42,367 nucleotides of DNA from a virus (Duplodnaviria > Heunggongvirae > Uroviricota > Caudoviricetes): IMG/VR virus record IMGVR_UViG_2563366848_000004; one strand, given 5' to 3'. Below are positions 1,673 through 16,344 of this stretch, one piece after another. Below the pieces are notes generated by a model. That model made no database searches, had not been told where the DNA came from, and saw nothing but the letters and a program-made list of their open reading frames with translations. The stretch's first letter is position 1. Each line of letters opens with the position of its first letter. The position numbers and the translations under genes are program-made.

Positions 1673-1710
1673 ATAATCTCCTTGAGGGAGGGTTACCCCT
1701 CCCGGTCTCG

Positions 1711-2823: not shown

Positions 2824-2834
2824 CATCATTCCCC

Positions 2835-5744
2835 TTATGCATGAGTACGCAGCGCTTCAAGGCGGCGCAGGTCGAAGTCGTTCAGTTCGTCGGTGTAGTC
2901 AGCAGTGATTGGCGCTGGCCATTCACCTGTGTCGAATCCGGTTGCGATATTGCGCATCGCTTTGCGGTACTCGAGCATACCCAGCTCCAGTAGTTCAGCG
3001 GATGCCTCGATGATGGCGATCCAGTGGTAGTTCTCGTCTTTGTTGACGAAAATCCAGAAGAACTGATCCAGCGCTGCGGTTTCGCAGTACATAGCCGCGC
3101 TCAGGTGATAATCACGTTCAATAATTTCCCGGTGTAGCCTGGCGCGCAGGCTTTCCTGCTTAACATTCCACATGCTGATGGTTTTCAGGTCAGCACCGAT
3201 ACGCACGCCGTCTAGGTCGATCTCAAGGTCAGGACGCACACGAACTTCCAGTCCCGTCTCCTCGTCAAAGCCAAAGTAGCTCACCTCAACGGCGCGGCTC
3301 GGGTGGGTTAGCAGCATGCCTGCGGTCGGGTGCGAGAGCAGTGCTGACTGAATTGCCTGCGCGGTGGCAAGTTGCTGGTGGGTAACCAGCACTTTCCCTT
3401 CCGGGTTGTTGCGCCAAGCATCGAGCAGCTCGTCGGCGAACACTGCATCTGGTTTGACTGCCTTCACGGCCTGAATCAGATCGGCCTTCGTGCCAGAGAC
3501 TTTCAGCGGTTGCAGCTTCTGAGCTTCCTGCGCGACCAGGTCAGGATTGATAATCGCAAGTTGTTCGAGTAGTGCGTCGCGGCTGCCGCTGGTTTTAATC
3601 TGCGCTGGCAGGGTGGCGTTGTACTCTTTGATGCACGCCTTCATTGCTGTTGCTGTCTTCTTCTGATCTGTATCGATACGTTGGAATTCAGCTGGCAGCG
3701 CCATATAGTTCTGCGCCGTTTCATCCAGGCTAGCGCCCAGCGGCACCAGCGCTGGCAGGGTGGCGTTGTATTCATCCAGCAAAGCTTTGATATCGTCTGC
3801 GCTCAGTTGCGCTGGCAGGCTGGCGTTGTACTCATCAATAAACGCGCGGATCGTTGCCGTGGTGGTAAATGCACCTTCCGGAATTACGGGTTCAACGCTA
3901 AATTCTTCATCGAGCTGTTCTGGCTGCAACGCCAGCGCATGTACCAGGTTTCCCATGTCCAGCACTGAGGAGCGCTCTTTGACGATGGTTTTCTCAACGT
4001 GGCGCGCATTGAAGTACATCAGCGAAACGCGCGCATCTTTTACCTGGGTGGAACTGATGCCGTTGGCAGCGTGGTAAACCTCGTTCGGCAGACCTTCATA
4101 GCGCCCAGGCTCGAAGTAATCGGGGTAAAAAACAGCTTGTTCGTCAGATTGCGCCTCTGGCTCGACGTGTGCCAAAACTGGTTCAGTCTGGTTTACAGAA
4201 TCGCTATTTTGAGCGACAGATTCCGTATTTTGGTTTACATCGGCCTGCTGGCCGGGATGTGACTCTTCACCAGTTTCCAGACTGCTTTCGCCTGACTGCA
4301 TTTCATTACCAACATTTTTTTCATCACTGACAGTTTCTTGAACCTGCACATTGCTGGTGGTTTCCGTAGCCTGTTTCGTGCCATGAGTTGCTGAGTTCTG
4401 CAGTAAAGCCGTAACATCGAATATTCCGTTGCCGACATTTTTAACCAGTTCTTGTTCGGCTTTATGTGGTTGTGCTGTCGCTTCCTCTGCGCGGCGGCGT
4501 GCTTCTTCTTCACGTACGCGTCGCAGGTTCTCTTCGTGAGTGCAGAAGGGTTTGCGTGGAGACTCCTTACTTTCAGGTTGGGGAATTTCCTGTGTTGCGG
4601 GCTCAGCTTCATGCAATGGCAATAACTCAACAGCAGCATTAAACGCAGCAGTCATGGTCCGGTTAACAAACTCCAGGTGAGCGACAGGAGTTAGATGAAT
4701 ATTTTCCGGCGCGATACGTATCAGGTTAAAAATAGCTGTGCGGTTAACGCCAAGAACGCCGGGTTGATTGCGCAGAATGCTGCTCCATGATTTCCACGGT
4801 TCTTCTTTTTTGGTCACGATTTCTTTAGCGCGACGAAGAATGCTGCCCGGGATCTCGAAGTGGTTGAAGTCCATAGGCAGAAGGGCACATGCAATCTCTA
4901 AATCGAGAGTGTCAAGGGTATGGTATGTATCAGGTCCACGGTCAGTGACGTAACCGCCGTTGGCATTGGTTCCGGAATCAGTACGCTGAACACTACTGAT
5001 GTGATTACCGGCAGCCCATTCACGCGCCAGGATGCCACGGTCAATGTAATCAGTAGCCGCCCACATTCTGGTGAAACGGAGTACCAGCGCGAGTTCGTGA
5101 CGCTTGTCCTGGCTGAACACTTTGCGAATGGCATCGGTGTAGCGCCACAGGTCTTTGGTGTCGTAACCCTTCACTTCCGGGCAGTTCTCAGCAGCTAACA
5201 GCAAGTTCTGGACGTAACTGTTATCAGTGTCCATCTCCAGCGCGCCGATAGCTTCGTACTCTTCGCGGGTTACGTGGTGGCGCAGTTCGTCGGCGGTGAA
5301 CTGGGAAAGCAGTTGCTTACGAAACGGCATCTGCACTACCGGGTAGAGGGTTGAGTCGTCGTCGTGTTCGTCCAGCGTGATGCCAGCGGTTTCTGGCAGC
5401 GTTGACTCAGTAGTTATGTGACTATCAACGGTCTGAGCTGTTTTCTCGTCAGAGTTTTCAGCTGTGACTTTTGGCAGCCAGGTGCGGTCATCGTTCTGCA
5501 GTTCGTAGCGTTCGCACCAGGTGTAATCCACTGCGCCTTCTTCCGGCAGGTCGTCATATACCGGGAAATCGGTGCGGATTGGTTTGGCATAATCTTTACC
5601 GCGGCCAGTTTCTTCAATTCCGGCTTCTTCCAGTGCCACATCGAGTTGGAGATTGGCGCGCGCTACACTTTTCGCAGTGAACCAAATCACTGCATCTTTC
5701 TTGCCAGACTTCTGACTGGCTTTTATCAGATGGAAAAATTCCAT
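2835..5744 (-). CDS. RecE-like exonuclease VIII (C-terminal PD-(D/E)xK nuclease domain)
   Basis: 969-aa ORF from internal ATG (MEFFHLIKAS) with AAGAGGA SD; C-terminal region carries RPDLEIDLDG...IGADLKT (PD...DxK nuclease motif); large acidic/low-complexity linker; positioned upstream of annealase as in Rac recE-recT. Confidence 0.65.
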   Translation of the reverse strand: MEFFHLIKASQKSGKKDAVIWFTAKSVARANLQLDVALEEAGIEETGRGKDYAKPIRTDFPVYDDLPEEGAVDYTWCERYELQNDDRTWLPKVTAENSDEKTAQTVDSHITTESTLPETAGITLDEHDDDSTLYPVVQMPFRKQLLSQFTADELRHHVTREEYEAIGALEMDTDNSYVQNLLLAAENCPEVKGYDTKDLWRYTDAIRKVFSQDKRHELALVLRFTRMWAATDYIDRGILAREWAAGNHISSVQRTDSGTNANGGYVTDRGPDTYHTLDTLDLEIACALLPMDFNHFEIPGSILRRAKEIVTKKEEPWKSWSSILRNQPGVLGVNRTAIFNLIRIAPENIHLTPVAHLEFVNRTMTAAFNAAVELLPLHEAEPATQEIPQPESKESPRKPFCTHEENLRRVREEEARRRAEEATAQPHKAEQELVKNVGNGIFDVTALLQNSATHGTKQATETTSNVQVQETVSDEKNVGNEMQSGESSLETGEESHPGQQADVNQNTESVAQNSDSVNQTEPVLAHVEPEAQSDEQAVFYPDYFEPGRYEGLPNEVYHAANGISSTQVKDARVSLMYFNARHVEKTIVKERSSVLDMGNLVHALALQPEQLDEEFSVEPVIPEGAFTTTATIRAFIDEYNASLPAQLSADDIKALLDEYNATLPALVPLGASLDETAQNYMALPAEFQRIDTDQKKTATAMKACIKEYNATLPAQIKTSGSRDALLEQLAIINPDLVAQEAQKLQPLKVSGTKADLIQAVKAVKPDAVFADELLDAWRNNPEGKVLVTHQQLATAQAIQSALLSHPTAGMLLTHPSRAVEVSYFGFDEETGLEVRVRPDLEIDLDGVRIGADLKTISMWNVKQESLRARLHREIIERDYHLSAAMYCETAALDQFFWIFVNKDENYHWIAIIEASAELLELGMLEYRKAMRNIATGFDTGEWPAPITADYTDELNDFDLRRLEALRTHA

Positions 5745-5882
5745 GTGAGATCCTCTTTTTTGAGTGTTAGAATCCCCGGGCCAGAGATAGCGCCCATTGG
5801 ATGTTTTTTGGTTTGGTATAAATTCCGGTGTAACTTTGGTCGGTGGCACCGGACGTGAATCCCGCCTTGCGCGGGTTTTACG

Positions 5883-6044
5883 TTAGCCTTCGTGAGCCAT
5901 CTGGTCGTGCGAAGCGCAACGTTTGGAGCAATACTCTTTTTCTTTGCGCGCCAGCTGTGAGCCGTTGCGATAGAGAAGGGTGCTCTTGATTACTTCCTCC
6001 GTTTTAACCGGCTTGCCGCAATATCCGCATTTCTTGTCTAACAT
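5883..6044 (-). CDS. small zinc-ribbon protein (53 aa)
   Basis: Hand-translated ORF below the track size cut-off: MLDKKCGYCGKPVKTEEVIKSTLLYRNGSQLARKEKEYCSKRCASHDQMAHEG; CxxC ... CxxxC; GGAGGA SD upstream. Confidence 0.4.
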   Translation of the reverse strand: MLDKKCGYCGKPVKTEEVIKSTLLYRNGSQLARKEKEYCSKRCASHDQMAHEG

Positions 6045-6055
6045 GACATCCTCCG

Positions 6056-6262
6056 CTAGTGGCTGAGTCCATGCCCCAGACCGTTCAGATAAACTTCAAC
6101 CAGCAAATCCTTGGTGTAAGTCATTTCTACGCCGCGATGCAGATACAAACGTCCGCGAGCGTTAGCTGATGCCGTCCAGGTTGAGTCTTTGTGTTTGACG
6201 AGCATCCCCGGCTGAACTGCGCCGCGGTTTACTGTCTGTGTACCGTAGTGCTGATGAACCAT
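6056..6262 (-). CDS. small hypothetical protein (68 aa) in the kil-gene position
   Basis: Internal ATG (MVHQHYG...) preceded by TGGAG; first gene downstream of the leftward early promoter, the position of kilR in Rac; no sequence-level identification. Confidence 0.4.
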   Translation of the reverse strand: MVHQHYGTQTVNRGAVQPGMLVKHKDSTWTASANARGRLYLHRGVEMTYTKDLLVEVYLNGLGHGLSH

Positions 6263-6509
6263 GATGTTCTCCAGTTTTTCTGAGTGAACTTCGCTGGTGG
6301 TGCCGCGGCGCTGATCTTCACGGTTGAGCGTTTTAACTCTGCAATTCACCACCGCGAAGCTCACTCTGTGCTTTGCCCTTGTCGCCAGGCTGGCGGAACG
6401 TTTCAAACCTACTGCGCGTTAATCTCACCACCTCATTCCGGTCTTCGTATGCCCCGGACGGCTACTTCGTGGGCTCCATGCCTGGGTGGTTCGTGGTGCG
6501 TCTTGGTGA

Positions 6510-6585
6510 TTGCATATTAAGCCTGAGACTTAAATCATGTCAAGCTCCAGGCGAAATGTGATTGTAAGTTTCAGGCTTAATCGTG
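6510..6585 (-). promoter_or_regulatory. leftward early promoter with operator sites (OL/pL-like)
   Basis: On minus strand TTGACA (6543..6538) - 17 nt - TTAATA (6520..6515); 17-bp site TTAAGCCTGAGACTTAA (6517..6533) overlaps spacer/-10 and is the inverted copy of the OR site; additional half-site TCAGGCTTAA at 6571..6580. Confidence 0.5.
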
Positions 6586-6684
6586 ATGTTCACCGAATTG
6601 CAGGCAAAAAAAATCCCGACGCTAAGGTCGAGATCGGGGACTTCGTGGCTGGGTGTTGGCGGCTGAGATGGTGGGTGAGGGTGT

Positions 6685-6715
6685 AAAAAACCCGGCGCTG
6701 TGGCCGGGTTTTTTC
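6685..6715 (-). terminator. rho-independent terminator (bidirectional-type hairpin)
   Basis: AAAAAA-CCCGGC-gctgtg-GCCGGG-TTTTTT immediately after the stop of the 34-aa ORF. Confidence 0.6.
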
Positions 6716-6716
6716 A

Positions 6717-6821
6717 TTACTGCTGGTTAAATCCTTTCGGCGAGTGCTGCTGTTCTTTATTACCAAATTTTTGATTTACAATGATTTTATAAGCGTTATT
6801 GAGAGCTTGCTTTATAGACAT
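6717..6821 (-). CDS. 34-aa hypothetical basic peptide, translationally coupled to the 435-aa gene
   Basis: Hand-translated: MSIKQALNNAYKIIVNQKFGNKEQQHSPKGFNQQ; arrangement TAA(stop of upstream gene)-cacat-AAGGAG-atatta-ATG; followed directly by the terminator. Confidence 0.4.
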   Translation of the reverse strand: MSIKQALNNAYKIIVNQKFGNKEQQHSPKGFNQQ

Positions 6822-6838
6822 TAATATCTCCTTATGTG

Positions 6839-8143
6839 TTATTGACGATTAAAGTAGTTAGAGTTTAGCTCTTTAGGGAAGTAGTGTTTACGATTTACCC
6901 AAACAAATCCATCAACTTTTGATATCACAGCGACATCAACAGGCCCACCGACAGTTTCATAATCATGTGATACTTTTCTTTTGAATGCAGTGATGTTCAC
7001 TAATGATTCGGCCATATACGCAAGATCTGCCTTCCCAAGTGATTGCAACATCGATATCATTTTATTTGTATGGTTATTAACAATATAGCTTTCAAGTTTA
7101 GTATCGTGATCTTGTAAAAGTACGTTTTTGAGTTCCTCAATTTCACTGGAGAAGTGATTGGCTAGTACTCCATTGTTCATTGCAGGGAAAATATTGCTAG
7201 AAACATAATGATTAAGCCGATCAAAAACTTCCTCTGTAAGAGTTCTGTTAAAATTAATGATGTTAGGGTTGCACCCATCAATGAAAGTTACTACTTCATC
7301 TTCTTGAGCAAATGGTATAACAAACCCCATATTGGTTACCTTATTATGGGATTTATCATCAATATTATGGATCATCAATTTGTTTTTAAAAATGCCGTAG
7401 ATATGAAGAGTGCAAATGGAAGGGTAATATTCTTCCTCTCCATAACCTGTTATAACAATCCCTGAATATGTACGACTAGCATGGACTTTGAAAATTAAAC
7501 AAGTGGAATATAATATGACTTTTTCCATAAGCTCTTGCTGTATATTTTCACAGTTATCAAGAACAATAATTGATGAAATGTATGGCGATATTAAATCTTG
7601 TATATATGCTAAAGCATCATTAAACTCTTCTGTATCAAACCCTTCGAAAAAGAGATTATTCCTTAAGATTCCTATCTCTAAATCAAAGGCTTGCTTAACT
7701 ATGTTTTGAAAAATAACATTGTCGAGTTCAACGGCGGGGTTCATTGTTAAATAGTTTACTACATTATTATCATTAATGTATCTCATCAAACCTTTGAGGT
7801 TATCAACAACAAGGTTTATAACGCAAGCCTCTCTCATTTCATTTGTTATAAGGTCTGAGTTACCATTGATGAATTTTACAAAGTCATTAACATATTCTTT
7901 AATGGTAGGGAAACTAGTTTTCCCCAATTGTTTTCTATAGGATTTAATTATAAGTTCCCACGGTGCGCCACCCAGTGTCGCATTATTATAAATCATGATC
8001 CCCACGGGATGGTGTTTAGATAGTTCGAATAGTTTTTCCGCACTATTATTTATTTTTACTAATCTATTATGCTCTGTGGTGACTGCAGAGTCAGCAGCAA
8101 GGGCGATTCCAGTATTATTTATTACAACAATCTCAGCTGTCAT
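6839..8143 (-). CDS. AT-rich 435-aa protein with proteasome-beta/HslV-like Ntn-hydrolase signature; candidate lysogen-expressed defence protein
   Basis: Long ORF in a markedly AT-rich island; start at ATG 8143 (MTAEIVV..., GGGA upstream) preferred over track start 8242, which has no SD; N-terminus T2-x15-D18 ... K30-I and C-terminus DYETVGGPVDVAVISKVDGFVWV resemble Ntn threonine-protease motifs (from memory); same strand as and downstream of the repressor. Confidence 0.75.
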   Translation of the reverse strand: MTAEIVVINNTGIALAADSAVTTEHNRLVKINNSAEKLFELSKHHPVGIMIYNNATLGGAPWELIIKSYRKQLGKTSFPTIKEYVNDFVKFINGNSDLITNEMREACVINLVVDNLKGLMRYINDNNVVNYLTMNPAVELDNVIFQNIVKQAFDLEIGILRNNLFFEGFDTEEFNDALAYIQDLISPYISSIIVLDNCENIQQELMEKVILYSTCLIFKVHASRTYSGIVITGYGEEEYYPSICTLHIYGIFKNKLMIHNIDDKSHNKVTNMGFVIPFAQEDEVVTFIDGCNPNIINFNRTLTEEVFDRLNHYVSSNIFPAMNNGVLANHFSSEIEELKNVLLQDHDTKLESYIVNNHTNKMISMLQSLGKADLAYMAESLVNITAFKRKVSHDYETVGGPVDVAVISKVDGFVWVNRKHYFPKELNSNYFNRQ

Positions 8144-8164
8144 TGCAAAACATCCCGTGTAGTA

Positions 8165-8201
8165 GTGATAAATATTAATTAAATTGATAGTTTTTTTCAA
8201 T
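8165..8201 (-). promoter_or_regulatory. putative sigma70 promoter for the 435-aa gene
   Basis: Minus-strand TTGAAA (8200..8195) - 17 nt - TAATAT (8177..8172), about 30 nt upstream of start codon 8143; AT-rich DNA raises the chance of spurious matches. Confidence 0.35.
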
Positions 8202-8284
8202 CTAACATAAATGGCGGAATCACCCCCCAGTAAAGACATCATTGTCTCATGGGAACTAAAAATTCAGGACAAACCTAAAGCGAT

Positions 8285-8671
8285 TCAGTCCCCCTGCGAG
8301 CGAATCCGCCCCTTCATGTACTTCTCATACAGCTCATCCAGTTCCTTAAGACGTATCGAAAAGATGCGGAGCATGTTCTGTTGCTCTTCTTCTGGCAGCT
8401 GGCGGTAGAGCTCAAGCAGGCGCTGTTCGTCCGGCTTAAGTCCGTCCTTCTCGCCGACATCCTCACCGAGTAACCAAGGCACAGACACGCCAGCTGCGTC
8501 AGCGACAGCGAGAGCTGATTTCTTGCTGATCACGCCTTTTTTAAACCAGCCGTTCACAGACTGCGGGGTTACCCCAGCAACCCTAGCCATATCGGATTTG
8601 GTCATACCGCGCCCGTTCAGCTCTGAAAGGCGTTCGACAAGTATCGGATTAAGTACGGTTTTCTCTTTCAT
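8285..8671 (-). CDS. prophage repressor, HTH XRE family (CI/RacR-like)
   Basis: 128-aa ORF; HTH segment MTKSDMARVAGVTPQSVNGWFKKG; divergent from the Cro-like gene across an operator-rich intergenic region. Confidence 0.8.
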   Translation of the reverse strand: MKEKTVLNPILVERLSELNGRGMTKSDMARVAGVTPQSVNGWFKKGVISKKSALAVADAAGVSVPWLLGEDVGEKDGLKPDEQRLLELYRQLPEEEQQNMLRIFSIRLKELDELYEKYMKGRIRSQGD

Positions 8672-8704
8672 GGTTAGAAGAATAAGCCTTTTTCTTAAAC
8701 TTGA

Positions 8705-8760
8705 AAATTCGCCTCAGGCTTGACAATAAATTAAGTCTCAGGCTTAATTTGATTGTATTC
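8705..8760 (+). promoter_or_regulatory. rightward early promoter with operator sites (OR/pR-like)
   Basis: TTGACA (8720..8725) - about 17 nt - CTTAAT; 17-bp site TTAAGTCTCAGGCTTAA (8731..8747, arms TTAAG/CTTAA) overlapping the -10; second CTCAGGCTT half-site at 8713..8721 overlapping the -35. Confidence 0.55.
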
Positions 8761-8775
8761 AAATCGGAGACAACG

Positions 8776-8994
8776 ATGAACGGGTTAACGAAAGCCATTA
8801 AGTCCGCTGGCACTGCAACAAATCTCGCAACCATGCTGGGCATCAAGCCGATGTCGGTCAGCCGCTGGAAAAACCGGTACCAGGGCGTGGTGCCTGCTGA
8901 TCGGGTCCTTCAAATCTACGCGGCTACCGGCGTAACTCCACACGAGCTGCGCCCTGATCTCTATCCAAACCCAAGTGACGGTTTACCAAAGTAA
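8776..8994 (+). CDS. Cro-like HTH regulator (YdaS family)
   Basis: 73-aa product from internal ATG with GGAGA SD; ...LATMLGIKPMSVSRWKNRYQGVVPADRVLQIYAATGVTPHELRPDLYP matches the YdaS/Cro-type pattern (HTH followed by P..RV..I...TG......LRPDL). Confidence 0.7.
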   Translation: MNGLTKAIKSAGTATNLATMLGIKPMSVSRWKNRYQGVVPADRVLQIYAATGVTPHELRPDLYPNPSDGLPK

Positions 8995-9005
8995 GGAATG
9001 TAACT

Positions 9006-9545
9006 ATGCAATCACTTACGTATCAACAGAGTAACGGGTTCATTTCAGCAGCGCTGATAAATCGCGCTCAACCAAAACCGGGCGTCAGTTGTGGTGCCCT
9101 CCGTGATGCTGTTCGCGCCTGGTCAGCAGTAGCCGGGCAGGACGTTGTAACGGCCCTGATCGTTGAAGAGTGGCACCGGATAGGTGGCGAAGGTATCGAC
9201 TTTCCGGCAGATCACAGCCGTGCCCGGCAGAAGCTGTTCCGCTTCCTGGATAACCATTTCAACAGCGAACGGTACCGCGAGAACGTCCGCCAGCTGACGC
9301 CGGCAATCCTCGCTGTCCTGCCGATTGAATACCGCAATCGTCTGCTACCAGAAGACAACGTAATGGCTCGTCTGGCAAGGCTGGAGAAGGAAACCAGCGA
9401 AGCGAAGATTGCTGTCGCAATGGATGCGCCACGTCATCAGAAGCTGAAAGAGTTGAGCGAGGGGATCGTGGAGATGTATCGCGTTGACCCTGGGTTAACC
9501 GGTCCGTTGATGGAAATGGTGCAGATTATGCTGGGGGCTATATGA
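9006..9545 (+). CDS. hypothetical early regulatory protein (YdaT/CII position)
   Basis: 179-aa ORF directly after the Cro-like gene; assignment by position only. Confidence 0.5.
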   Translation: MQSLTYQQSNGFISAALINRAQPKPGVSCGALRDAVRAWSAVAGQDVVTALIVEEWHRIGGEGIDFPADHSRARQKLFRFLDNHFNSERYRENVRQLTPAILAVLPIEYRNRLLPEDNVMARLARLEKETSEAKIAVAMDAPRHQKLKELSEGIVEMYRVDPGLTGPLMEMVQIMLGAI

Positions 9546-9629
9546 CCGGTTCAAAAATGGCGAAAGCCGCGGTGCTCGAACACCAACGGCTTTCAGGTGC
9601 AAAAACAGTGCGTAATTGCGGAGAACAGT

Positions 9630-10538
9630 ATGTCAAACACCGCTGAAATAATCAATTTCCCAAATAAAACCGAACAACCGGGAGGTCGTATGGCCGACCT
9701 GTCGAACGGGTATACCAAGGTCGCTAACGAGATCCAACAGCTTAAGCCTCGCCTGAGACTGTCAGGCCGGGAATGGCAATGTTTTGAGGCGGTGATCTGG
9801 CTTACCTACGGCTGGAACAAGAAACAGGACCGTGTGACAAATACGGTTATTGCCGAGCTTACGGGCCTGAGCGATACGCATGTATCGGACGCGCTTAAGT
9901 CTCTCGCAGAACGCAAAATCATCTTTTCACAGAAGCAGGGCATGATGAAAATCGTCGGTGTAAACACTGACCTTTCAGCATGGATTTTAGACAAACCGGA
10001 AACGGGAAGAAAATTCCCGAAAACGGGAAAATCCTTCCCGAAATCAGGAATAACCTTCCCGAAAACGGTAGACACCCAATACAAGAACAAGAACAGTATT
10101 AAAAGATCTTCGTCCGAGAATTCTGACGAATCCTCTGACGCACGTCTGAAGAAATTTTTATCAACTCATCCTGAAGCTGCGGTCTACACACCATCCGGTG
10201 CGAAGTGGGGCTCTGCTGAAGACCTCGAGACAGCTAAGTGGATTTCCTCCAGGGTGAAGCTGATTAACCCAACCTGCAAAGCCCCGGACATGACCTCCTG
10301 GTCTAACACTGTTCGCCTGATGCGCCAGATAGACAACCGGTCGCACCAGGACATCTGCGCGCTGTATGACTGGGCTAGCAAACACCACTTCTGGCAGACC
10401 AACATCCTGAGTCCCGAAAGCCTGCGTAAGCAGTGGGACAAGCTGACAATGCAGCGTAACGCCGGAGGTGAGCAGCGCGCTGTCAAGCCAGATCTGGACT
10501 TCAACAACACTGACTGGGCCTATGGGGTGATCCGATGA
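9630..10538 (+). CDS. replication initiator protein O-like
   Basis: Start at ATG with GGAGAA SD (track ORF begins earlier at GTG 9597); iteron repeats embedded in the coding sequence; 4-nt ATGA overlap with P gene as in lambda O-P. Confidence 0.8.
   Translation: MSNTAEIINFPNKTEQPGGRMADLSNGYTKVANEIQQLKPRLRLSGREWQCFEAVIWLTYGWNKKQDRVTNTVIAELTGLSDTHVSDALKSLAERKIIFSQKQGMMKIVGVNTDLSAWILDKPETGRKFPKTGKSFPKSGITFPKTVDTQYKNKNSIKRSSSENSDESSDARLKKFLSTHPEAAVYTPSGAKWGSAEDLETAKWISSRVKLINPTCKAPDMTSWSNTVRLMRQIDNRSHQDICALYDWASKHHFWQTNILSPESLRKQWDKLTMQRNAGGEQRAVKPDLDFNNTDWAYGVIR
10005..10070. repeat. origin iterons (about four direct repeats of TCCCGAAAACGGGAA-like units) inside the O gene
   Basis: ccggaaacgggaag / ttcccgaaaacgggaaa / ttcccgaaatcaggaa / ttcccgaaaacgg with an AT-rich stretch downstream; encoded as KFPKTGKSFPKSGITFPKT. 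Confidence 0.6.
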
Positions 10539-11224
10539 AATCTCTTGCAGAGCAGATGCGTAACCACGACCGCGAGCAGATGAGCCGCATGGCCCATAAC
10601 CTGCCAGAGCAGTACCAGGAGTGCGCGCCGGTCGAGCAGGTGGCGCAGGTATTCAACAAGCTGTTCAACGAGCTGCGCGCCGCGTTCCCGGCCAGCATGG
10701 CGAACTTCCGCACCCAGGAAGACCTGAACGAATTCCGCCGTCAGTGGCTGCTGGCGTTTCAGGAGAACGGGATCCACACCATGGCTCAGGTCGATGCCGG
10801 CATGCGCATTGCCCGCCGCCAGGAGCGCCCATTCCTGCCGTCGCCGGGCCAGTTCGTCGCCTGGTGCAAGCAGAGCGGCGGCGCGCTGGGCGTCAACGTT
10901 GACCAGGTGATCGCCGAATACTGGGACTGGCGTAACCGCTCGTTCGAATTCATCTCCAGCGAGCAATTTCCATGGTCGCAGCCGGTCATGTACCACATTT
11001 GCGTAGAATTGCGCCACCGCAGCACCGAGCGCCAGTTAACGCATGGTGAACTGGCACGCGAGGCAGGCGATCTGCTGGACATGTGGGAAAGGCGCGTCAC
11101 CGAGGGTAAGCCAGTGCCGCCGGTACGCCGGGCTATTGCCGCACCAGCTGCCGAGCAAGGGCCGACGCCGATCCAGCTGCTGCTGGCCAAGTACAACCGC
11201 AACAAGTCGAACGGGATGGTGTGA
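10535..11224 (+). CDS. P: replication protein P (DnaB helicase loader), lambda P-like
   Basis: 229-aa product MKSLAEQMRNHDREQMSRMAHNLPEQY...RRQERPFLPSPGQFVAWC closely parallels lambda P as remembered (MKNIAAQMVNFDREQMRRIANNMPEQY...RRQNRPFLPSPGQFVAWC). Confidence 0.9.
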   Translation: MKSLAEQMRNHDREQMSRMAHNLPEQYQECAPVEQVAQVFNKLFNELRAAFPASMANFRTQEDLNEFRRQWLLAFQENGIHTMAQVDAGMRIARRQERPFLPSPGQFVAWCKQSGGALGVNVDQVIAEYWDWRNRSFEFISSEQFPWSQPVMYHICVELRHRSTERQLTHGELAREAGDLLDMWERRVTEGKPVPPVRRAIAAPAAEQGPTPIQLLLAKYNRNKSNGMV

Positions 11225-11225
11225 C

Positions 11226-11426
11226 ATGAACATAACAATCCGTGAGCAGGTGCTGGCAGCCCTGCGCAACAACCCAGGGTTGAACAACGCCAAACTGGCA
11301 GGGCTTCCCGGAGTGGTACATCATCGATCAGGACTATCGGGGGCAGAAGTACGCGAAGGACAAGCAGGTTGCGCGTTGTGGCAACGCAGTTCCGCCGCCA
11401 TTCGCCGAGGCACTGGTGAGGGCTAA
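11226..11426 (+). CDS. hypothetical protein, probably a rearranged gene remnant
   Basis: ATG overlapping P stop (ren position); the +1 frame over its 3' half encodes ...CGNAVPPPFAEALVRANLPELCQQKEIAA with no start codon, ending at 11466. Confidence 0.3.
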   Translation: MNITIREQVLAALRNNPGLNNAKLAGLPGVVHHRSGLSGAEVREGQAGCALWQRSSAAIRRGTGEG

Positions 11427-11565
11427 TTTACCGGAGCTTTGTCAGCAGAAAGAGATCGCAGCTTAATGTCCGAGTTTCAGAACATGGTGTAACAAATCCT
11501 GCTACTTCAATGACGTAGATTCAAACCTGATATAATTAGGCTCTTCACAACACGAGGAGCCTAAA

Positions 11566-11802
11566 ATGCACCATTACATGATCCCTATCAACGGAACTGT
11601 TCACCTGATCAAGACTGACTCTCTAATCCCTGAAGGGACTGAGTATAGCTTTGAAGGAGAAAGTCTAATCTGCGCTCATGCCACTTTTAAATCTGGGACG
11701 TATGGCTTCCTGATACCAAAGGGAAATCAGTTGAATAGAGAGCATGCGTTCTGGCATGTAAGTGGAATTCACCCTAATCCCCTGGGAATGGATAAATCGT
11801 AA
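11566..11802 (+). CDS. hypothetical protein (78 aa) in AT-rich insert
   Basis: ORF with GAGGAG SD; lies between two roughly 83 percent identical 64-nt segments. Confidence 0.45.
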   Translation: MHHYMIPINGTVHLIKTDSLIPEGTEYSFEGESLICAHATFKSGTYGFLIPKGNQLNREHAFWHVSGIHPNPLGMDKS

Positions 11803-11913
11803 TCCATAATATGCATGCCATCGTCCTGAACATACGGTGGCATGCATCCGGCACTACAACAGAAACGTTAAAGTGCAAACAATACAATTCGAGCAATATT
11901 CAACCTGTCACAG

Positions 11914-12054
11914 ATGGCGAATACCACCGCCATTTCGTGCATTCTGTGGTTTCTATTACCCATTGCGTTAATGCTGTCCAATCATCAGCTCGCTGAGGCG
12001 CTGGTTAGGGCTAACCTACAGGAGCTTTGTCAGCAGAAACAAATAGCGGCGTAA
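11914..12054 (+). CDS. possible small hydrophobic protein (46 aa) sharing its C-terminal 20 aa with the upstream remnant
   Basis: Hand-translated MANTTAISCILWFLLPIALMLSNHQLAEALVRANLQELCQQKQIAA; no clear SD; overlaps a 61-aa track ORF in another frame. Confidence 0.25.
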   Translation: MANTTAISCILWFLLPIALMLSNHQLAEALVRANLQELCQQKQIAA

Positions 12055-12071
12055 TAAAACATCGCTAATTC

Positions 12072-12100
12072 AACCCGCTACGGCGGGTTTTCTTTTTTTA
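12072..12100 (+). terminator. rho-independent terminator
   Basis: CCCGC-tacg-GCGGG followed by TTTTCTTTTTTT. Confidence 0.45.
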
Positions 12101-12161
12101 CTACTGACAGAAAATTAACAATTTGTGCTCTTAAAGCGTTGATCATTTCCGCGCATAGGTA

Positions 12162-12181
12162 TACTGTATAAAAACACAGTA
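12162..12181 (+). promoter_or_regulatory. LexA (SOS) box overlapping the dinI-like promoter
   Basis: TACTGTATAAAAACACAGTA = CTGT-N8-ACAG with TA flanks, overlapping a TATACT -10-like hexamer, about 20 nt upstream of the DinI-family gene. Confidence 0.7.
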
Positions 12182-12199
12182 AATGCAATGGGGGCCATT

Positions 12200-12433
12200 A
12201 TGAAAGTTGAATTAACCATTGATCGCATGAAAGAACTTCCTAAAGGCGCAGTACCAGCACTGGAGAAAGAACTGCTTAAGCGCCTGAATGATCACTATGA
12301 CAATTGCAGGCTCACAATCCGCCGTGCCGGGGCCGATGGGTTAAGTGTTTTTGGTGGTGACAAGGACGATAAAAAGAAAATTGAATCAATCCTCCAGGAT
12401 ACCTGGGAAAGCGCTGACGACTGGTTTTATTAG
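12200..12433 (+). CDS. dinI: DinI-family DNA-damage-inducible protein
   Basis: MKVELTIDRMKELPKGAVPALEKEL...LSVFGGDKDDKKKIESILQDTWESADDWFY parallels E. coli DinI as remembered (MRIEVTIAKT...SVIGATKEDKQRISEILQETWESADDWF); LexA box upstream. Confidence 0.8.
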   Translation: MKVELTIDRMKELPKGAVPALEKELLKRLNDHYDNCRLTIRRAGADGLSVFGGDKDDKKKIESILQDTWESADDWFY

Positions 12434-12550
12434 AATTGCGCTTAAGGCTGGCGCGCATTTTTCAGAATACCGCAATTTGCGTAACCCTCTGATGCTGCTG
12501 CCGACAATCTTTAATCGCGTCTGTTAGTCGCTCGAAGGGAGAACATAAAT

Positions 12551-12799
12551 GTGAGTGATTCAGCTTTGCAAACGTCAGAAGACAACTGGTATGACATTGT
12601 AAGAAGGTCTGACGGCTGCGTGGTGTTTAGCTTTCCTTCATCGGGCAGGCATCTAATTTATCGCGTCAATGGCATGGTTTCTATGCGGCCTTTGCTGGAT
12701 GATGAAGAGGTCTTTACTCCTAATGGTTTTATGCAGTTTATTCACCGTCTCGGCTACCGGGTAACCCCACCTTCTGATAATATGAAATCAACGGTCTGA
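12551..12799 (+). CDS. hypothetical protein (82 aa)
   Basis: GTG start with AGGGAGA SD; no family recognised. Confidence 0.45.
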   Translation: MSDSALQTSEDNWYDIVRRSDGCVVFSFPSSGRHLIYRVNGMVSMRPLLDDEEVFTPNGFMQFIHRLGYRVTPPSDNMKSTV

Positions 12800-12833
12800 A
12801 CAACCGTAACCTACTGCGCCACGGAGAGAAACC

Positions 12834-13433
12834 ATGGCGCACGAACTACAACTCATCAAGCATTCCTCAGGAATCCTGATCCCCGCTACGCCGGAGACCA
12901 GTGATTTACTGCAATCAAAAATCAAACTCGGCTCCGTACTGGTGGCTGAGTTCCGGCAGGTACGCAACCCGGCCTTTCACCGTCGTTTCTTCGCGTTACT
13001 CAATCTCGGTTTCGAATACTGGGAACCCACCGGCGGGGCAATCTCCTCCAACGAACGCAAGCTGGTAACCGGCTATGCCAAGTTCCTTGCCTCATTCGCG
13101 GGAAGTGAAGCAGCACTCCTGGATGCTGCTGAGCAATATCTGGACCGCATCGCCGATAAGCGTACTGGTAGCATCTGCGCCTGTAAGTCATTCGATGCAT
13201 ATCGTGCATGGGTCACTATTGAGTCCGGCCATTACGACGCCATTCAGCTGCCTGACGGCACCCTCCGCAAACATCCCCGCAGTATCTCATTCGCAAATAT
13301 GGATGAAACTGAGTTCCAGCAGCTGTACAAAGCCGCGCTCGATGTTCTGTGGCGATGGATACTCTCCCGATCATTTCGCAGTTGTGAAGAGGCAGAAAAC
13401 GCCGCCGCCCAGCTGATGAGCTTTGCGGGGTGA
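12834..13433 (+). CDS. hypothetical nin-region protein (199 aa)
   Basis: ORF with GGAGAGA SD; position equivalent to the lambda nin region; no confident family call. Confidence 0.6.
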   Translation: MAHELQLIKHSSGILIPATPETSDLLQSKIKLGSVLVAEFRQVRNPAFHRRFFALLNLGFEYWEPTGGAISSNERKLVTGYAKFLASFAGSEAALLDAAEQYLDRIADKRTGSICACKSFDAYRAWVTIESGHYDAIQLPDGTLRKHPRSISFANMDETEFQQLYKAALDVLWRWILSRSFRSCEEAENAAAQLMSFAG

Positions 13434-13639
13434 TGGCGATGAAATTTTCCTGGTTCCACCATCACGAATGCACCACCGAACAGGCCGACGAGCTGGTGGA
13501 GAAATACCGGGCGCGCGGTGTAAAGACAGAGCGCAGCCTGAATCGCGACAACATCACCTGGACCGTCAGCGCGCAATTGCCGGAAGGCGATAACGCGCCT
13601 CGCCCGAGCCGGGTATGGCAAAGCAAGGCGTGGGGGTGA
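13433..13639 (+). CDS. small hypothetical nin-region protein
   Basis: Short ORF overlapping the stop of the upstream gene; start ambiguous (13430 GTG, 13433 or 13439 ATG). Confidence 0.4.
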   Translation: MAMKFSWFHHHECTTEQADELVEKYRARGVKTERSLNRDNITWTVSAQLPEGDNAPRPSRVWQSKAWG

Positions 13640-13641
13640 GC

Positions 13642-13932
13642 ATGGCAAATTTACGCAAAGAGGCTCGTGGTCGTGATTGTCAGGTTCGAATTCCCGGCGT
13701 CTGCAACGGTAACCCGGAAACGTCTGTACTGGCGCACATTCGCCTGGCCGGGTTATGTGGCACCGGAATCAAACCGCCTGATCTGATTGCCACCATTGCA
13801 TGCTCTGCCTGTCACGACGAGATCGACCGCCGTACACATTTTGTCGATGCTGAGTATGCTAAAGAATGCGCGCTGGAAGGTATGGCGAGAACGCAGGTTA
13901 TCTGGCTGAAAGAGGGGGTAATCAAGGCGTGA
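13642..13932 (+). CDS. YbcO-like protein (DUF1364-type, Cys/His-rich putative nuclease)
   Basis: Start at internal ATG ([28 protein letters not shown]...[10 protein letters not shown]) with GGGGGTGAG SD; immediately upstream of rusA as in DLP12. Confidence 0.7.
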
Positions 13933-14291
13933 ATACTTACAACATCACATTGCCCTGGCCGCCGAGCAATAACCGCTACTACCGCCATAATCGCGGGCGC
14001 ACGCACATCAGCGCAGAAGGGCAGGCATACCGCGATAACGTCGCCCGAATCATTAAAAACGCAATGCTGGATATCGGTCTGGCTATGCCTGTGAAAATCC
14101 GCATTGAGTGCCACATGCCGGATCGCCGTCGCCGTGACCTGGATAATCTGCAAAAGGCCGCTTTTGACGCACTCACCAAAGCAGGTTTCTGGCTGGACGA
14201 TGCTCAGGTCGTTGATTATCGCGTTGTGAAGATGCCCGTTACCAAAGGTGGAAAGCTGGAACTGACAATCACCGGGCTGGAGGCCGTATGA
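13929..14291 (+). CDS. rusA: Holliday junction resolvase RusA
   Basis: GTG start overlapping upstream stop; [108 protein letters not shown] matches E. coli RusA as remembered. Confidence 0.85.
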
Positions 14292-14424
14292 CATTTGAAT
14301 CCTGTTTTTCCGATCACCTCCGCGTTCGCTGGCAGCGGCTTCGCTTATACCACTTTCCCGGCTCTGTGCTAACGGACTACCGGATACTGAAGAATTACGT
14401 GAAAACTTATGCTGGAGAAGCACT

Positions 14425-15207
14425 ATGAACCTTGAAAACACAGTGAAATACCACTTCGCTAAATCCACACTGATTAGCGATTCTCCGCGCGCTACCGCCT
14501 CCGATTCACTGACCGGTACCGACATAATGGCTGCCATGGGCATGACGCAGGAACGCGCCGCAATGGGTTACAGCGCCTTCCTCGGCAAGATGGGCATAAG
14601 CAATAACGACCGGGATCGGGCGATCGGTCTGCTGGCTGAGTACGCGATGACAAAATGCGACAAGGTTGCCGCACTGCGTAAGCTCGGTGCCGCGGTTAAA
14701 CCTCAGGTGATGCACCAGTTGGCCACCTTCGCTTTTGAGGACTATTCCCGCAGCGCTGCCAGCGTGAAGCAGTGCGATTGTTGTGACGGTCAGGGCTTCA
14801 TTGAGGCTGACGTGTTTACCAATAAATTCCGTAAGCCAGAAGGGAAAATGACCGTGTCCGGGATGGTGAAGGTCAAAGAATCCATCAAAGTGCTATGCAA
14901 AAAGTGTAATGGCTCTGGTGTGGTTAGTGCTTCTTGCAGTGATTGCCATGGGCGCGGCAAGGCAGTGAACCAGGCTCTTACTGAGAAACAGGGCGTTCCT
15001 GTTCTGGCTGACTGTAAGCGCTGCGGAGGGCGTGGGTATGAACGACTTCCGTCGACTGAAGCCTATGCTGCTGTATGCCAGATTACTGACGCCATTAGCC
15101 TGGACACCTGGAAAAAGTCTGTTAAGCCATTCTACGACCTGCTGATCACGAAATTTGATATCGAAGAGTCCTGGGCCGAAAAACAGCTTAAGCAGATAAC
15201 GCGGTAA
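14425..15207 (+). CDS. late-gene antitermination protein Q-like
   Basis: 260-aa ORF with GGAGAAG SD; Cys-rich zinc-binding region (CDCCDGQG ... CKKCNGSG ... CSDCHGRG ... CKRCGGRG); immediately upstream of the lysis cassette. Confidence 0.75.
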   Translation: MNLENTVKYHFAKSTLISDSPRATASDSLTGTDIMAAMGMTQERAAMGYSAFLGKMGISNNDRDRAIGLLAEYAMTKCDKVAALRKLGAAVKPQVMHQLATFAFEDYSRSAASVKQCDCCDGQGFIEADVFTNKFRKPEGKMTVSGMVKVKESIKVLCKKCNGSGVVSASCSDCHGRGKAVNQALTEKQGVPVLADCKRCGGRGYERLPSTEAYAAVCQITDAISLDTWKKSVKPFYDLLITKFDIEESWAEKQLKQITR

Positions 15208-15306
15208 CGCCTATAGCGATAGCCTATGATTTTGTCTTGGGCTATTTACTTTTCCCGAATCTGTGTTAATTTTGTCCCAACGATGGGTTAATGCCTTCGT
15301 TTCAAG

Positions 15307-15340
15307 CCCTGCGGATAACACCGTGGGGTTTTTGCGTTTC
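15307..15340 (+). terminator. possible tR'-like terminator downstream of Q
   Basis: CCCTGCGG-ataaca-CCGTGGGG (stem with G-U pairs) followed by TTTTTGCGTTT; weak. Confidence 0.3.
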
Positions 15341-15410
15341 TGGAGACAGCAATACCAAGGTTCGAGACATTCAGGTAAAATTGATGCATTACAGGATGTG
15401 AGGTTGGGGA

Positions 15411-15980
15411 ATGAATAATCTACCCGATGATTACTTTTTGGATGCGGACGACGAACTCGTTGCTTTTCTGGAGAAGCAGGGCGAGGATTGTATACGCGAA
15501 ATTCACCAGTCCAACGCACTAAACAAAGAAAATGGCCAGAAGTTATTGAGTATACTCATTGCTGGCGTGGGCTCGTCATTTTTGTTATTAACGCAACGTA
15601 CAGGTTTTGATTACCTCACCGCTGGAATGTCTGTTTTTTTAGTCTACTGGGCAATGTGTGCGGCTTATCTTGTTCGCTGCGTCCTCGTTGTAAGGTCACG
15701 AGCTCTCGTGTCATCGACACCCTATGCGCTTTACCATGATGGCTATAAAGGGTTTACTGAAGATGATTACACTGGTTTTGAGTCGAAAGGATTTTCAGGA
15801 AAGCGTTCAACATTGAACGTCTTGCGGCGCTACCGGCTTGCGGATTTAACCAGAATGGCTGAAATGAGTAAAAAAGAGAATGCCAGAATAGGCCGAGAAC
15901 TAGAAAGGGTAAGGATCGCTACAATCCTCACCCCTGTTTGTGCACTTGTAATCTCAGTACTTACTTACCTTTTTTTCTGA
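15411..15980 (+). CDS. hypothetical membrane protein (189 aa) at the Q-lysis junction
   Basis: ORF with SD-like GAGGTTGGGGA; acidic N-terminus, two central and one C-terminal hydrophobic segments; occupies the classic moron site between Q and the holin. Confidence 0.55.
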   Translation: MNNLPDDYFLDADDELVAFLEKQGEDCIREIHQSNALNKENGQKLLSILIAGVGSSFLLLTQRTGFDYLTAGMSVFLVYWAMCAAYLVRCVLVVRSRALVSSTPYALYHDGYKGFTEDDYTGFESKGFSGKRSTLNVLRRYRLADLTRMAEMSKKENARIGRELERVRIATILTPVCALVISVLTYLFF

Positions 15981-16110
15981 TGTTTTCAGCAGAATCGGCA
16001 ACAAAGGTATAACCTGTCCTCAGATTTCTTTCGGCTGGCTGTGGAGCCGGTTTAGGCTGTGGTGCGGGTTGAGGCTTATTTTCTCCAGATGGTTTGTTTG
16101 ATTCACTCAT
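15961..16110 (-). CDS. possible proline-rich small protein (49 aa)
   Basis: Hand-translated MSESNKPSGENKPQPAPQPKPAPQPAERNLRTGYTFVADSAENIRKKGK with GGAGAA SD; convergent with and overlapping the end of the 189-aa gene; could be spurious. Confidence 0.25.
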   Translation of the reverse strand: MSESNKPSGENKPQPAPQPKPAPQPAERNLRTGYTFVADSAENIRKKGK

Positions 16111-16202
16111 ATAATTCTCCATGTTTGATAGGGTTATTTTTGGCGATTTAACGATATCAAATACAGTGATTTGCTGCTAGAGCATGCACTTATCTATAAC
16201 TC

Positions 16203-16230
16203 GCCCCGGCACCCGCTGGGGCTTTTTTAT
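16203..16230 (+). terminator. rho-independent terminator
   Basis: GCCCCGGC-accc-GCTGGGGC followed by TTTTTTATTT. Confidence 0.5.
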
Positions 16231-16344
16231 TTCCGGCTCACGGTAATCATCCGCTACGTGCTTTGTTGATAAATCCAACCCGTGAAGCCTGAGCCTATTT
16301 CCCCTCATACCTGAGAGGACTCACAGCAATTAAGAGGGGGCTAA

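What the first reader, a model, noticed from the sequence alone, without database searches (positions are those of the whole stretch)
10005..10070. Iteron array (replication origin) embedded in the O gene
About four direct repeats of a roughly 15-bp TCCCGAAAACGGGAA-like unit at about 18-bp spacing, followed by an AT-rich stretch, lie inside the O-like coding sequence. This is the lambda ori-in-O arrangement and implies O binds its own coding DNA.
Basis: partly seen in the sequence, partly recalled or inferred. Interest (0 to 1): 0.35.

Follow-up and report, generated by a model that had tools for sequence, protein, structure and literature searches.

The report
Phage phi80 replication origin inside gene O
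This is the already described replication origin of coliphage phi80, four binding sites for the phage's own initiator protein followed by an easily melted stretch, lying inside the initiator gene just as in phage lambda; it is real but ordinary.

Summary
Window 9630-10538 encodes a lambda-O homolog whose protein is 100% identical to phage phi80 gp15. A lambda-P homolog follows at 10535-11224. Four 16-bp units (consensus TTCCCGAAAACGGGAA, an inverted repeat) start at 9993, 10014, 10035 and 10056. The least stable 40-mer of the gene starts directly after unit 4, in a tract that is 67.5% A+T.

The window is base-for-base identical to phi80 over 9834-10917. GenBank record JX871397 annotates the same four units as gp15 binding sites. 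In about 30 related O genes from Enterobacterales all four units keep the 21-bp register, while the 5-nt spacers vary. Synonymous differences fall from 0.39-0.40 in the flanking domains to 0.06 across codons 122-168 (9993-10133), so selection acts on the DNA rather than on the peptide.

By homology with lambda, O dimers bind the iterons and bend the DNA, the AT-rich tract opens, and P delivers DnaB. Binding and initiation were not tested here. Novelty: already known. Interest: low.

The parts
9630..10538 (+). Initiator gene: lambda-O homolog, identical to phi80 gene 15 (302 aa)
   Evidence: Pfam PF04492 Phage_rep_O, E = 6e-25 over residues 20-118. The protein is 100% identical to phi80 gp15. 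It is 37% identical to lambda O over 99% of its length.
9687..9983 (+). Coding region of the N-terminal origin-binding (winged-helix-like) domain of O, residues 20-118
   Evidence: This is the extent of the Pfam Phage_rep_O match. There is a weak HTH_Crp_2 match at residues 68-102 and a weak PDB sequence hit to a DtxR-type regulator at residues 52-108 (E = 0.009).
9993..10008 (.). Iteron 1 (AAACCGGAAACGGGAA): degenerate left half, intact right half
   Evidence: It is in the 21-bp register with the other units. It matches the phi80 'protein_bind gp15' feature at 9994-10008. It is conserved in all relatives.
10014..10029 (.). Iteron 2 (TTCCCGAAAACGGGAA): perfect 6+4+6 inverted repeat
   Evidence: annotated as a gp15 site in JX871397.
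10035..10050 (.). Iteron 3 (TTCCCGAAATCAGGAA)
   Evidence: annotated as a gp15 site in JX871397.
10056..10071 (.). Iteron 4 (TTCCCGAAAACGGTAG): right half degenerate, and conserved in that form in nearly all relatives
   Evidence: annotated as a gp15 site at 10056-10070.
10072..10110 (.). A-rich, AT-rich tract; presumed DNA unwinding element
   Evidence: 69% A+T, with 20 A against 7 T on the top strand. The least stable 40-mer in the O gene starts at 10069. Mean column information is 1.67 bits and the synonymous-difference fraction is 0.06. It occupies the same position as the lambda 38-40-bp AT-rich region (PMC3349717, PMC5043065).
10110..10139 (.). Conserved right-hand element TCGTCCGAGAATTCTGACGAATCCTCTGAC, shared with lambda-type origins
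   Evidence: A 31-nt stretch is 100% identical to several lambda-like phages (H21-H27). Lambda has TCGTCAGAGAATTCTGGCGAATCCTCTGAC at the same place. The synonymous-difference fraction is 0.12, against 0.40 further downstream.
10535..11224 (+). Helicase-loader gene: lambda-P homolog, equivalent to phi80 gene 14; overlaps the O stop codon
   Evidence: Pfam PF06992 Phage_lambda_P, E = 1.9e-49. Annotated as 'replication initiation protein 14' in phi80.

Best explanation
Window 9993-10139 is the phi80-type lambdoid replication origin. It is embedded in the linker-coding part of the initiator gene O (phi80 gene 15).

Shown here:
- Four inverted-repeat iterons sit at exactly two helical turns (21 bp).
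- They are followed by the least stable, A-rich tract of the gene and then by a short element shared with lambda.
- The whole ~145-bp segment is under DNA-level purifying selection in about 30 relatives.
- The sequence is identical to phi80, where the four units are annotated as gp15 binding sites.

Inferred from the lambda paradigm (PMC5043065, PMC7466680):
- Dimers of the O N-terminal domain bind each iteron. The invariant core is CCG-N4-CGG.
- The 21-bp phasing puts all dimers on one face of the helix, so the DNA bends or wraps into an 'O-some'.
- On negatively supercoiled DNA, helped by rightward early transcription, the adjacent AT-rich tract opens.
- The O C-terminal domain recruits the P homolog (gene 14 product) bound to host DnaB. 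Host chaperones then release DnaB and theta replication starts.

Because the DNA is the constrained object, the peptide it encodes, (F-P-K-T/S-G-x-x) repeated, is most likely a tolerant inter-domain linker.
For: - Homology of the two genes to O and P.
- 99.6-99.8% nucleotide identity to phi80, HK225 and mEp237. The O protein is identical to phi80 gp15. The window is base-identical to phi80 over 9834-10917.
- The four 'protein_bind gp15' features of JX871397 map onto window 9994-10008, 10014-10029, 10035-10050 and 10056-10070.
- The repeats exceed chance, with period 21.
- 30 distinct related sequences align without gaps. Iteron columns carry 1.78 bits and spacer columns 1.04 bits (Mann-Whitney p = 6e-7). 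Positions 4-6, 8-9, 11-13 and 15 are nearly invariant.
- The synonymous-difference fraction is 0.04 in the iterons, 0.06 in the AT tract and 0.12 in the right element, against 0.39 (N-terminal) and 0.40 (C-terminal). Amino-acid identity is nevertheless lower in the ori segment (0.75) than in the N-terminal domain (0.85). The lowest of all 47-codon windows starts at codon 123.
- The duplex-stability minimum of the gene starts at 10069.
- The same layout, with different inverted-repeat iterons, occurs in the O-type genes of lambda, ES18, P22 and Proteus phage Pm34. The P22 and ES18 records annotate it as rep_origin.
- Loci that share only the C-terminal half of this O carry a different N-terminal domain and different repeats. 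The iterons therefore travel with the N-terminal domain.
Against: - Nothing here shows protein binding or initiation. The 'gp15' binding annotation in GenBank may itself rest on analogy with lambda rather than on footprinting.
- The AT-rich tract is only 67.5% A+T, against 77.5% in lambda.
- Units 1 and 4 are half-degenerate.
- Low synonymous divergence could be inflated by recombination, since the segment is a mosaic joint. The variable spacers inside the same segment argue against recent common descent as the sole cause.
Confidence: 0.95

Rival explanations
1. The repeat is a coding-level feature only. On this view a tandem heptapeptide (FPKTGKS-like) in the O linker is selected for protein function, and the DNA repeat is its by-product.
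For: The 21-bp period is exactly 7 codons and in frame. It gives GRKFPKTGKSFPKSGITFPKTV.
Against: - Amino-acid identity in this segment (0.74-0.75) is lower than in the N-terminal domain (0.85), while synonymous change is about 7-10-fold rarer.
- Codons are fixed: CCG, GGA and ACG show essentially no synonymous alternatives across 28 genes.
- Lambda, P22 and Pm34 have unrelated peptide sequences but the same DNA architecture, and the lambda and P22 spacings (20, 24, 23 bp) are not all multiples of 3.
- The unit is an inverted repeat at the DNA level, which a peptide requirement does not explain.
Confidence: 0.02
2. The palindromes act as nucleic-acid hairpins rather than as duplex protein-binding sites. 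They could be a minus-strand intrinsic terminator or pause site, or an mRNA or ssDNA structure.
For: Iteron 2 read on the minus strand scores as a 6-bp stem, 4-nt loop and T-run terminator-like site. The Morganella variant changes both arms symmetrically, which would also preserve pairing.
Against: - Terminator-like hits in the region are not above the shuffle expectation (3 found, 3.2 expected).
- Units 1 and 4 are conserved in a form that cannot make the 6-bp stem.
- The strict 21-bp helical phasing and the adjacent melting-prone tract fit duplex binding.
- No Rfam family matches anywhere in the window.
Confidence: 0.02
3. The segment is conserved mainly because it is a recombination joint for modular exchange of O N- and C-terminal domains. 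Recent shared ancestry, rather than origin function, would then explain the low synonymous divergence.
For: - Several loci share only residues 1-158 or only 143-302 with this O.
- 31 nt of the right element are identical in otherwise 37%-identical lambda-type O genes.
Against: - Within the same 80 bp the 5-nt spacers are highly variable (1.04 bits) while the iteron cores are fixed (1.78 bits). Uniform recent ancestry does not predict this.
- Conservation holds in the most divergent genes, those 59-64% identical at the protein level.
- This idea is compatible with, and probably a consequence of, origin function rather than an alternative to it.
Confidence: 0.03

Closest known systems
Replication origin of coliphage phi80 in gene 15 (GenBank JX871397 / X13065). 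The same module is present in phages mEp237 and HK225.
   Same: The DNA is identical across the whole origin: the window matches phi80 without a mismatch over 9834-10917. The gp15 protein is identical. The four annotated gp15 binding sites coincide with the four units.
   Different: Nothing differs in the origin itself. The surrounding phage does differ. DNA upstream of 9620 matches mEp237 rather than phi80. The late region resembles Citrobacter phage Omnitron and Salmonella phage SEN34-type phages rather than phi80.
ori-lambda: four ITN iterons plus a 38-40-bp AT-rich region inside gene O
   Same: - The position in the gene is the same (nt 349-435 of 900, against 364-442 of 909).
- There are four inverted-repeat iterons with an AAAA centre, an A-rich AT tract directly to the right, and then the shared GAGAATTCTG.CGAATCCTCTGAC element.
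- A P gene follows downstream (PMC3349717, PMC5043065).
   Different: - The iteron sequence differs: TCCCTCAAAACGAGGGA in lambda, TTCCCGAAAACGGGAA here.
- The spacing differs: 20, 24, 23 bp in lambda, 21, 21, 21 bp here.
- The AT tract is 77.5% A+T in lambda and 67.5% here.
- The O proteins are only 37% identical.
Origins of Stx phages (933W, P27) and of P22 (gene 18) and ES18
   Same: All have an iteron array plus an AT-rich tract inside an O-type gene (PMC7466680).
   Different: Stx phages have six lambda-type iterons and 13 extra residues in O (PMC7466680). P22 has TTTACCAGATCGGTAAA-type iterons and a DnaB-like helicase instead of P.
Iteron origins of plasmids (F, P1, R6K, pSC101, RK2)
   Same: Both have helically phased arrays of initiator binding sites next to an AT-rich unwinding element (PMC5043065).
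   Different: Plasmid iterons are direct repeats bound by Rep monomers, they lie outside the rep gene, and they usually work with DnaA boxes. Here the units are inverted repeats, presumably bound by dimers, inside the initiator gene. No DnaA-box consensus lies within 30 kb.

Membership tests
Lambdoid 'ori-in-O' origin (ori-lambda type) | The origin lies within a gene for an O-family initiator (Pfam Phage_rep_O N-terminal domain) | tested here: met
   PF04492, E = 6e-25, 88 bits against a cut-off of 28.7. The array lies at gene nt 364-442.
Lambdoid 'ori-in-O' origin (ori-lambda type) | A cluster of about four inverted-repeat iterons of 16-19 bp at roughly 20-24-bp spacing, at the junction between the N- and C-terminal domains | tested here: met
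   Four units with a 21-bp period. The layout is comparable in lambda, ES18, P22 and Pm34.
Lambdoid 'ori-in-O' origin (ori-lambda type) | An AT-rich, strand-asymmetric unwinding tract directly to the right of the last iteron | tested here: met
   The least stable 40-mer of the gene starts at 10069. The tract is 67.5% A+T, against 77.5% in lambda, so the feature is met but less extreme.
Lambdoid 'ori-in-O' origin (ori-lambda type) | A helicase-loader (P) gene immediately downstream in the same operon | tested here: met
   PF06992, E = 1.9e-49. The P start overlaps the O stop at 10535-10538.
Lambdoid 'ori-in-O' origin (ori-lambda type) | The element is constrained as DNA, that is cis-acting, beyond what coding requires | tested here: met
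   Synonymous-difference fraction 0.06 against 0.39-0.40 in the flanks. Iteron cores carry 1.78 bits and spacers 1.04 bits.
Lambdoid 'ori-in-O' origin (ori-lambda type) | The iteron type is coupled to the type of the O N-terminal domain | tested here: met
   Loci with the same C-terminal half but a different N-terminal domain carry different repeats. Lambda, P22 and Pm34 each have their own iterons.
Lambdoid 'ori-in-O' origin (ori-lambda type) | The O protein binds the iterons, and bidirectional replication starts here | not testable with these tools
   This has been shown biochemically for lambda and Stx phages (PMC7466680, PMC5043065). For this sequence there is only the GenBank 'protein_bind gp15' annotation.
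phi80 ori specifically | Sequence identity with the phi80 gene 15 origin segment and its annotated gp15 sites | tested here: met
   Identical over 9834-10917. The four annotated sites map to the four units.
Plasmid-type iteron origin (Rep monomer, direct repeats, DnaA boxes) | Asymmetric direct-repeat iterons outside the rep gene, with DnaA boxes nearby | tested here: not met
   The units are inverted repeats inside the initiator gene. The only TTWTNCACA match in the window is at 40286.

The most novel reading that the evidence does not exclude
The comparative set contains what may be a natural change of origin specificity. The Morganella-type O (L029, and the L034 fragment) carries TTACCG-N4-CGGTAA in place of TTCCCG-N4-CGGGAA, changed symmetrically in both half-sites. 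Together with this it has two substitutions found in no other member, S81N and D87N, in the predicted recognition helix region. If these residues read position 3/14 of the iteron, the pair would give a simple recognition rule for O-family initiators, for which no initiator-DNA structure matched by sequence. The origin in the window itself would remain the known phi80 origin.
Probability: 0.25. Interest if true: 0.25.

Novelty: already known. Interest (0 to 1): 0.07.

Why it matters
The finding matters little as a discovery. It re-identifies the phi80 origin, whose sequence and four initiator sites are already in GenBank. To my own knowledge, this class of origin was among the first compared between lambdoid phages in the late 1970s (Grosschedl & Hobom 1979 and Moore et al. 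1979, as cited in PMC5043065 and PMC3349717).

It is useful for annotation. It marks the window as carrying an intact phi80-type O/P replication module. That module occurs in 176 of 5426 complete E. coli genomes. The analysis also delimits the cis-acting segment to about 9993-10139.

The comparative data give a clean illustration of dual coding, in which the DNA constraint overrides the protein constraint. They also supply a position-by-position conservation profile for phi80-type iterons.

Tried and rejected
- **Rfam.** A scan of the whole window at gathering thresholds gave no hit, not even for an oop-like RNA.
- **PDB sequence search with O.** The only hit was a marginal winged-helix regulator (E = 0.009), so there is no solved relative.
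- **Promoter/terminator scan of 8600-10700.** Hits were at chance level. The terminator-like call on iteron 2 (minus strand) was considered and rejected as an explanation.
- **DnaA boxes.** None lie near the origin.
- **Literature.** The phi80 genome paper (DOI 10.1128/JB.01353-12 and the PMC id I guessed for it) and Tsurimoto & Matsubara 1981 are not held. Direct experimental statements about phi80 gp15 binding could therefore not be read. Two further searches gave nothing specific to the phi80 ori.
- **A failed comparison.** A naive position-by-position comparison of window and phi80 failed because of a 1-nt indel near 9625. It was redone with block matching.
- **Rival explanations.** A peptide repeat, a hairpin and a recombination joint as sole explanations were considered and rejected (see rivals).

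Full report
**1. What is in the sequence**

Window 9630-10538 (+) is an ORF of 302 aa. A longer GTG-started version begins at 9597. Its N-terminal part matches Pfam Phage_rep_O (E = 6e-25). The next ORF, 10535-11224, overlaps the stop codon and matches Phage_lambda_P (E = 1.9e-49).

Four 16-bp units lie inside the first ORF:
- 9993 AAACCGGAAACGGGAA
- 10014 TTCCCGAAAACGGGAA
- 10035 TTCCCGAAATCAGGAA
- 10056 TTCCCGAAAACGGTAG

Tandem Repeats Finder reports period 21, 3.5 copies and score 90. The consensus 16-mer with up to 3 mismatches occurs 4 times in the 42-kb window against 0.40 expected, and none of 100 shuffles reaches 4.

The unit is an inverted repeat, TTCCCG-AAAA-CGGGAA. Units 2 and 3 have both arms. 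Unit 1 has only the right arm and unit 4 essentially only the left.

Two details need correcting: the period is 21 bp, not about 18, and the array begins at 9993, not 10005.

**2. The AT-rich stretch**

The 40 nt after unit 4 (ACACCCAATACAAGAACAAGAACAGTATTAAAAGATCTTC) are 67.5% A+T and strongly A-over-T on the top strand. A nearest-neighbour stability scan puts the least stable 40-mer of the whole O gene at 10069, directly after unit 4. This is within the least stable 2.4% of all 40-mers in the window. The corresponding lambda tract is 77.5% A+T.

**3. Identity**

The O-P segment is 99.8% identical to phage mEp237 and 99.6% identical to phages HK225 and phi80. The O protein is 100% identical to phi80 gp15. 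The window matches phi80 without a single difference over 9834-10917.

The phi80 GenBank record JX871397 carries four 'protein_bind' features bound by 'gp15' inside gene 15. Mapped onto the window they are 9994-10008, 10014-10029, 10035-10050 and 10056-10070, which are exactly the four units. The feature is thus the already annotated phi80 origin.

The same O-P module is found in 176 of 5426 complete E. coli genomes, in 104 of them at 99% identity or more.

**4.

A scan of one genome per species returned 31 loci with a relative of this O, mostly prophages of Enterobacter, Klebsiella, Citrobacter, Kluyvera, Pantoea, Morganella and Xenorhabdus. Three phages were added: PHB10, Meifeng and Kpn_R1.

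Together these give 30-31 distinct origin sequences that align without gaps. All have four units in the same 21-bp register. The only length difference inside the array is a 1-nt deletion in unit 2 of L036 (section 9). Columns inside the units carry 1.78 bits on average and the 5-nt spacers 1.04 bits (Mann-Whitney p = 6e-7). Positions 4-6 (CCG), 8-9 (AA), 11-13 (CGG) and 15 (A) are nearly invariant.

I built a codon alignment of 28 full-length genes. For each codon I measured the fraction of same-amino-acid sequence pairs that use different codons:

| Segment | Codons | Synonymous-difference fraction |
|---|---|---|
| N-terminal domain | 1-121 | 0.39 |
| Iterons | 122-147 | 0.04 |
| AT-rich tract | 148-160 | 0.06 |
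| Right element | 161-168 | 0.12 |
| C-terminal domain | 169-302 | 0.40 |

The lowest of all 47-codon windows starts at codon 123. Amino-acid identity is nevertheless lower in the ori segment (0.75) than in the N-terminal domain (0.85). Selection therefore acts on the DNA, and it delimits a cis-element of about 145 bp, 9993-10139.

**5. Comparison with other O-type genes**

| Phage | Iteron | Spacing (bp) | Source |
|---|---|---|---|
| Lambda, ES18 | ATCCCTCAAAACGAGGGA ×4 | 20, 24, 23 | |
| P22 gene 18 | TTTACCAGATCGGTAAA-type ×4 | 20, 24, 23 | |
| Proteus phage Pm34 | TGTCTCTAACTTAGAGACA-type, at least 3 | 24 | |

Each array lies at the same relative place in its gene. The P22 and ES18 records annotate the region as rep_origin.

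Lambda and the window also share the element to the right of the AT tract. Lambda has TCGTCAGAGAATTCTGGCGAATCCTCTGAC and the window has TCGTCCGAGAATTCTGACGAATCCTCTGAC.

Loci L031, L032 and L035 share only the C-terminal half of this O, from residue 143. They have a different N-terminal domain preceded by different repeats, for example GCCGCACAT-type repeats in L035, followed by a similar A-rich tract. Iterons thus travel with the N-terminal domain, and the mosaic joint lies in the AT-rich part of the origin.

**6. Mechanism**

The anatomy, the identity with phi80 and the DNA-level constraint are shown here. The steps that follow are inferred from lambda. There, O dimers bind four inverted-repeat iterons and bend the DNA. 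On supercoiled templates the adjacent ~40-bp AT-rich region then opens. P bridges O and DnaB, and DnaJ/DnaK/GrpE release the helicase. [quoted passage not shown]

The 21-bp period here equals two helical turns, which would place all four dimers on one face of the helix. This is my inference.

The classical lambda-phi80 hybrid work assigned origin specificity to the N-terminal part of O and P specificity to the C-terminal part. I recall this from my own knowledge (Furth and colleagues, late 1970s) and could not read it here.

**7. Rival explanations**

- **Peptide repeat.** This is contradicted by the codon data and by the unrelated peptides encoded at the same architecture in lambda, P22 and Pm34.
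- **Hairpin or terminator.** Iteron 2 on the minus strand scores as terminator-like, but this is at chance level. It is also contradicted by units 1 and 4, which are conserved as half-palindromes.
- **Recombination joint as sole cause.** This is contradicted by the contrast between variable spacers and fixed cores within the same 80 bp. The joint is more likely a consequence of the conserved origin.
- **Plasmid-type iteron origin.** This is not met. The units are palindromic and lie inside the gene, and there are no DnaA boxes nearby.

**8. Verdict**

The feature is already known because it is the phi80 origin, so interest is low.

**9. Side observations**

- Morganella L029 and fragment L034 have TTACCG..CGGTAA iterons, together with S81N and D87N in the predicted helix-turn-helix. 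These two substitutions are unique among the 28 genes. This is one lineage only, so it is a lead and not a result.
- L036 has a 1-nt deletion in unit 2, which frameshifts O.
- The window is a mosaic. Its early region resembles mEp237/phi80, and its late region resembles Citrobacter phage Omnitron and SEN34.
- A 467-aa ORF of 33% G+C lies next to the repressor gene (6839-8242, minus strand). It has no Pfam or PADLOC match, but it has 31-40% identical 'hypothetical protein' homologs in temperate phages and phage satellites of four phyla.

Noticed in passing
window 6839-8242 (-): A 467-aa ORF with 33% G+C, against about 53% in its surroundings, lies immediately beside the 128-aa HTH repressor-like gene. 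This is the position of rexAB in lambda. It has no Pfam or PADLOC match. It has 31-40% identical 'hypothetical protein' homologs in Stenotrophomonas, Providencia and Porphyromonas phages and in Streptococcus satellite phages. This cross-phylum distribution on mobile elements is typical of a moron or defence gene.
   Followed up: partly
L029 (Morganella morganii) 1004-1921 and L034 (569-nt contig labelled Photobacterium indicum): The iterons are TTACCG-N4-CGGTAA, changed symmetrically in both half-sites, in place of TTCCCG-N4-CGGGAA. They occur together with two O substitutions found in no other of the 28 genes, S81N and D87N, in the predicted helix-turn-helix. This may be a natural specificity switch, but it rests on one lineage only.
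   Followed up: partly
L031, L032, L035 (Enterobacter/Lelliottia prophages), upstream of the C-terminal match: These loci have the same C-terminal half of O, from residue 143, joined to a different N-terminal domain with different repeats (GCCGCACAT-type in L035). The mosaic joint falls in the AT-rich part of the origin.
   Followed up: partly
L036 (Kluyvera genomosp. 3 YDC799), iteron 2: A 1-nt deletion inside iteron 2 frameshifts the O gene. This is probably a decaying prophage or a sequencing error.
   Followed up: no
window 1-16301 versus 18332-42262: The window is a mosaic (pro)phage. Its early region (integrase, exo/RecT, O, P, Q) is about 96% identical to mEp237 and HK225, which are phi80-like. 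Its late region is 94-98% identical to Citrobacter phage Omnitron and about 84-90% identical to Salmonella phage SEN34-type phages.
   Followed up: partly
window 8285-8671 (-), 8701-8994 (+), 9006-9545 (+): The immunity region consists of a short (128 aa) HTH_3 repressor-like protein for which Pfam found no domain other than HTH_3, a YdaS/P22_Cro-like protein and a YdaT-family protein. The YdaT-family protein sits where phi80 annotates 'CII'. The DNA upstream of 9620 diverges from phi80 but not from mEp237.
   Followed up: no
window 10105-10108: There is a single GATC (Dam site, within AGATCT) inside the AT-rich tract. It is conserved in many but not all relatives; some have ATATCC instead. 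Its relevance to SeqA or Dam control is unknown.
   Followed up: no
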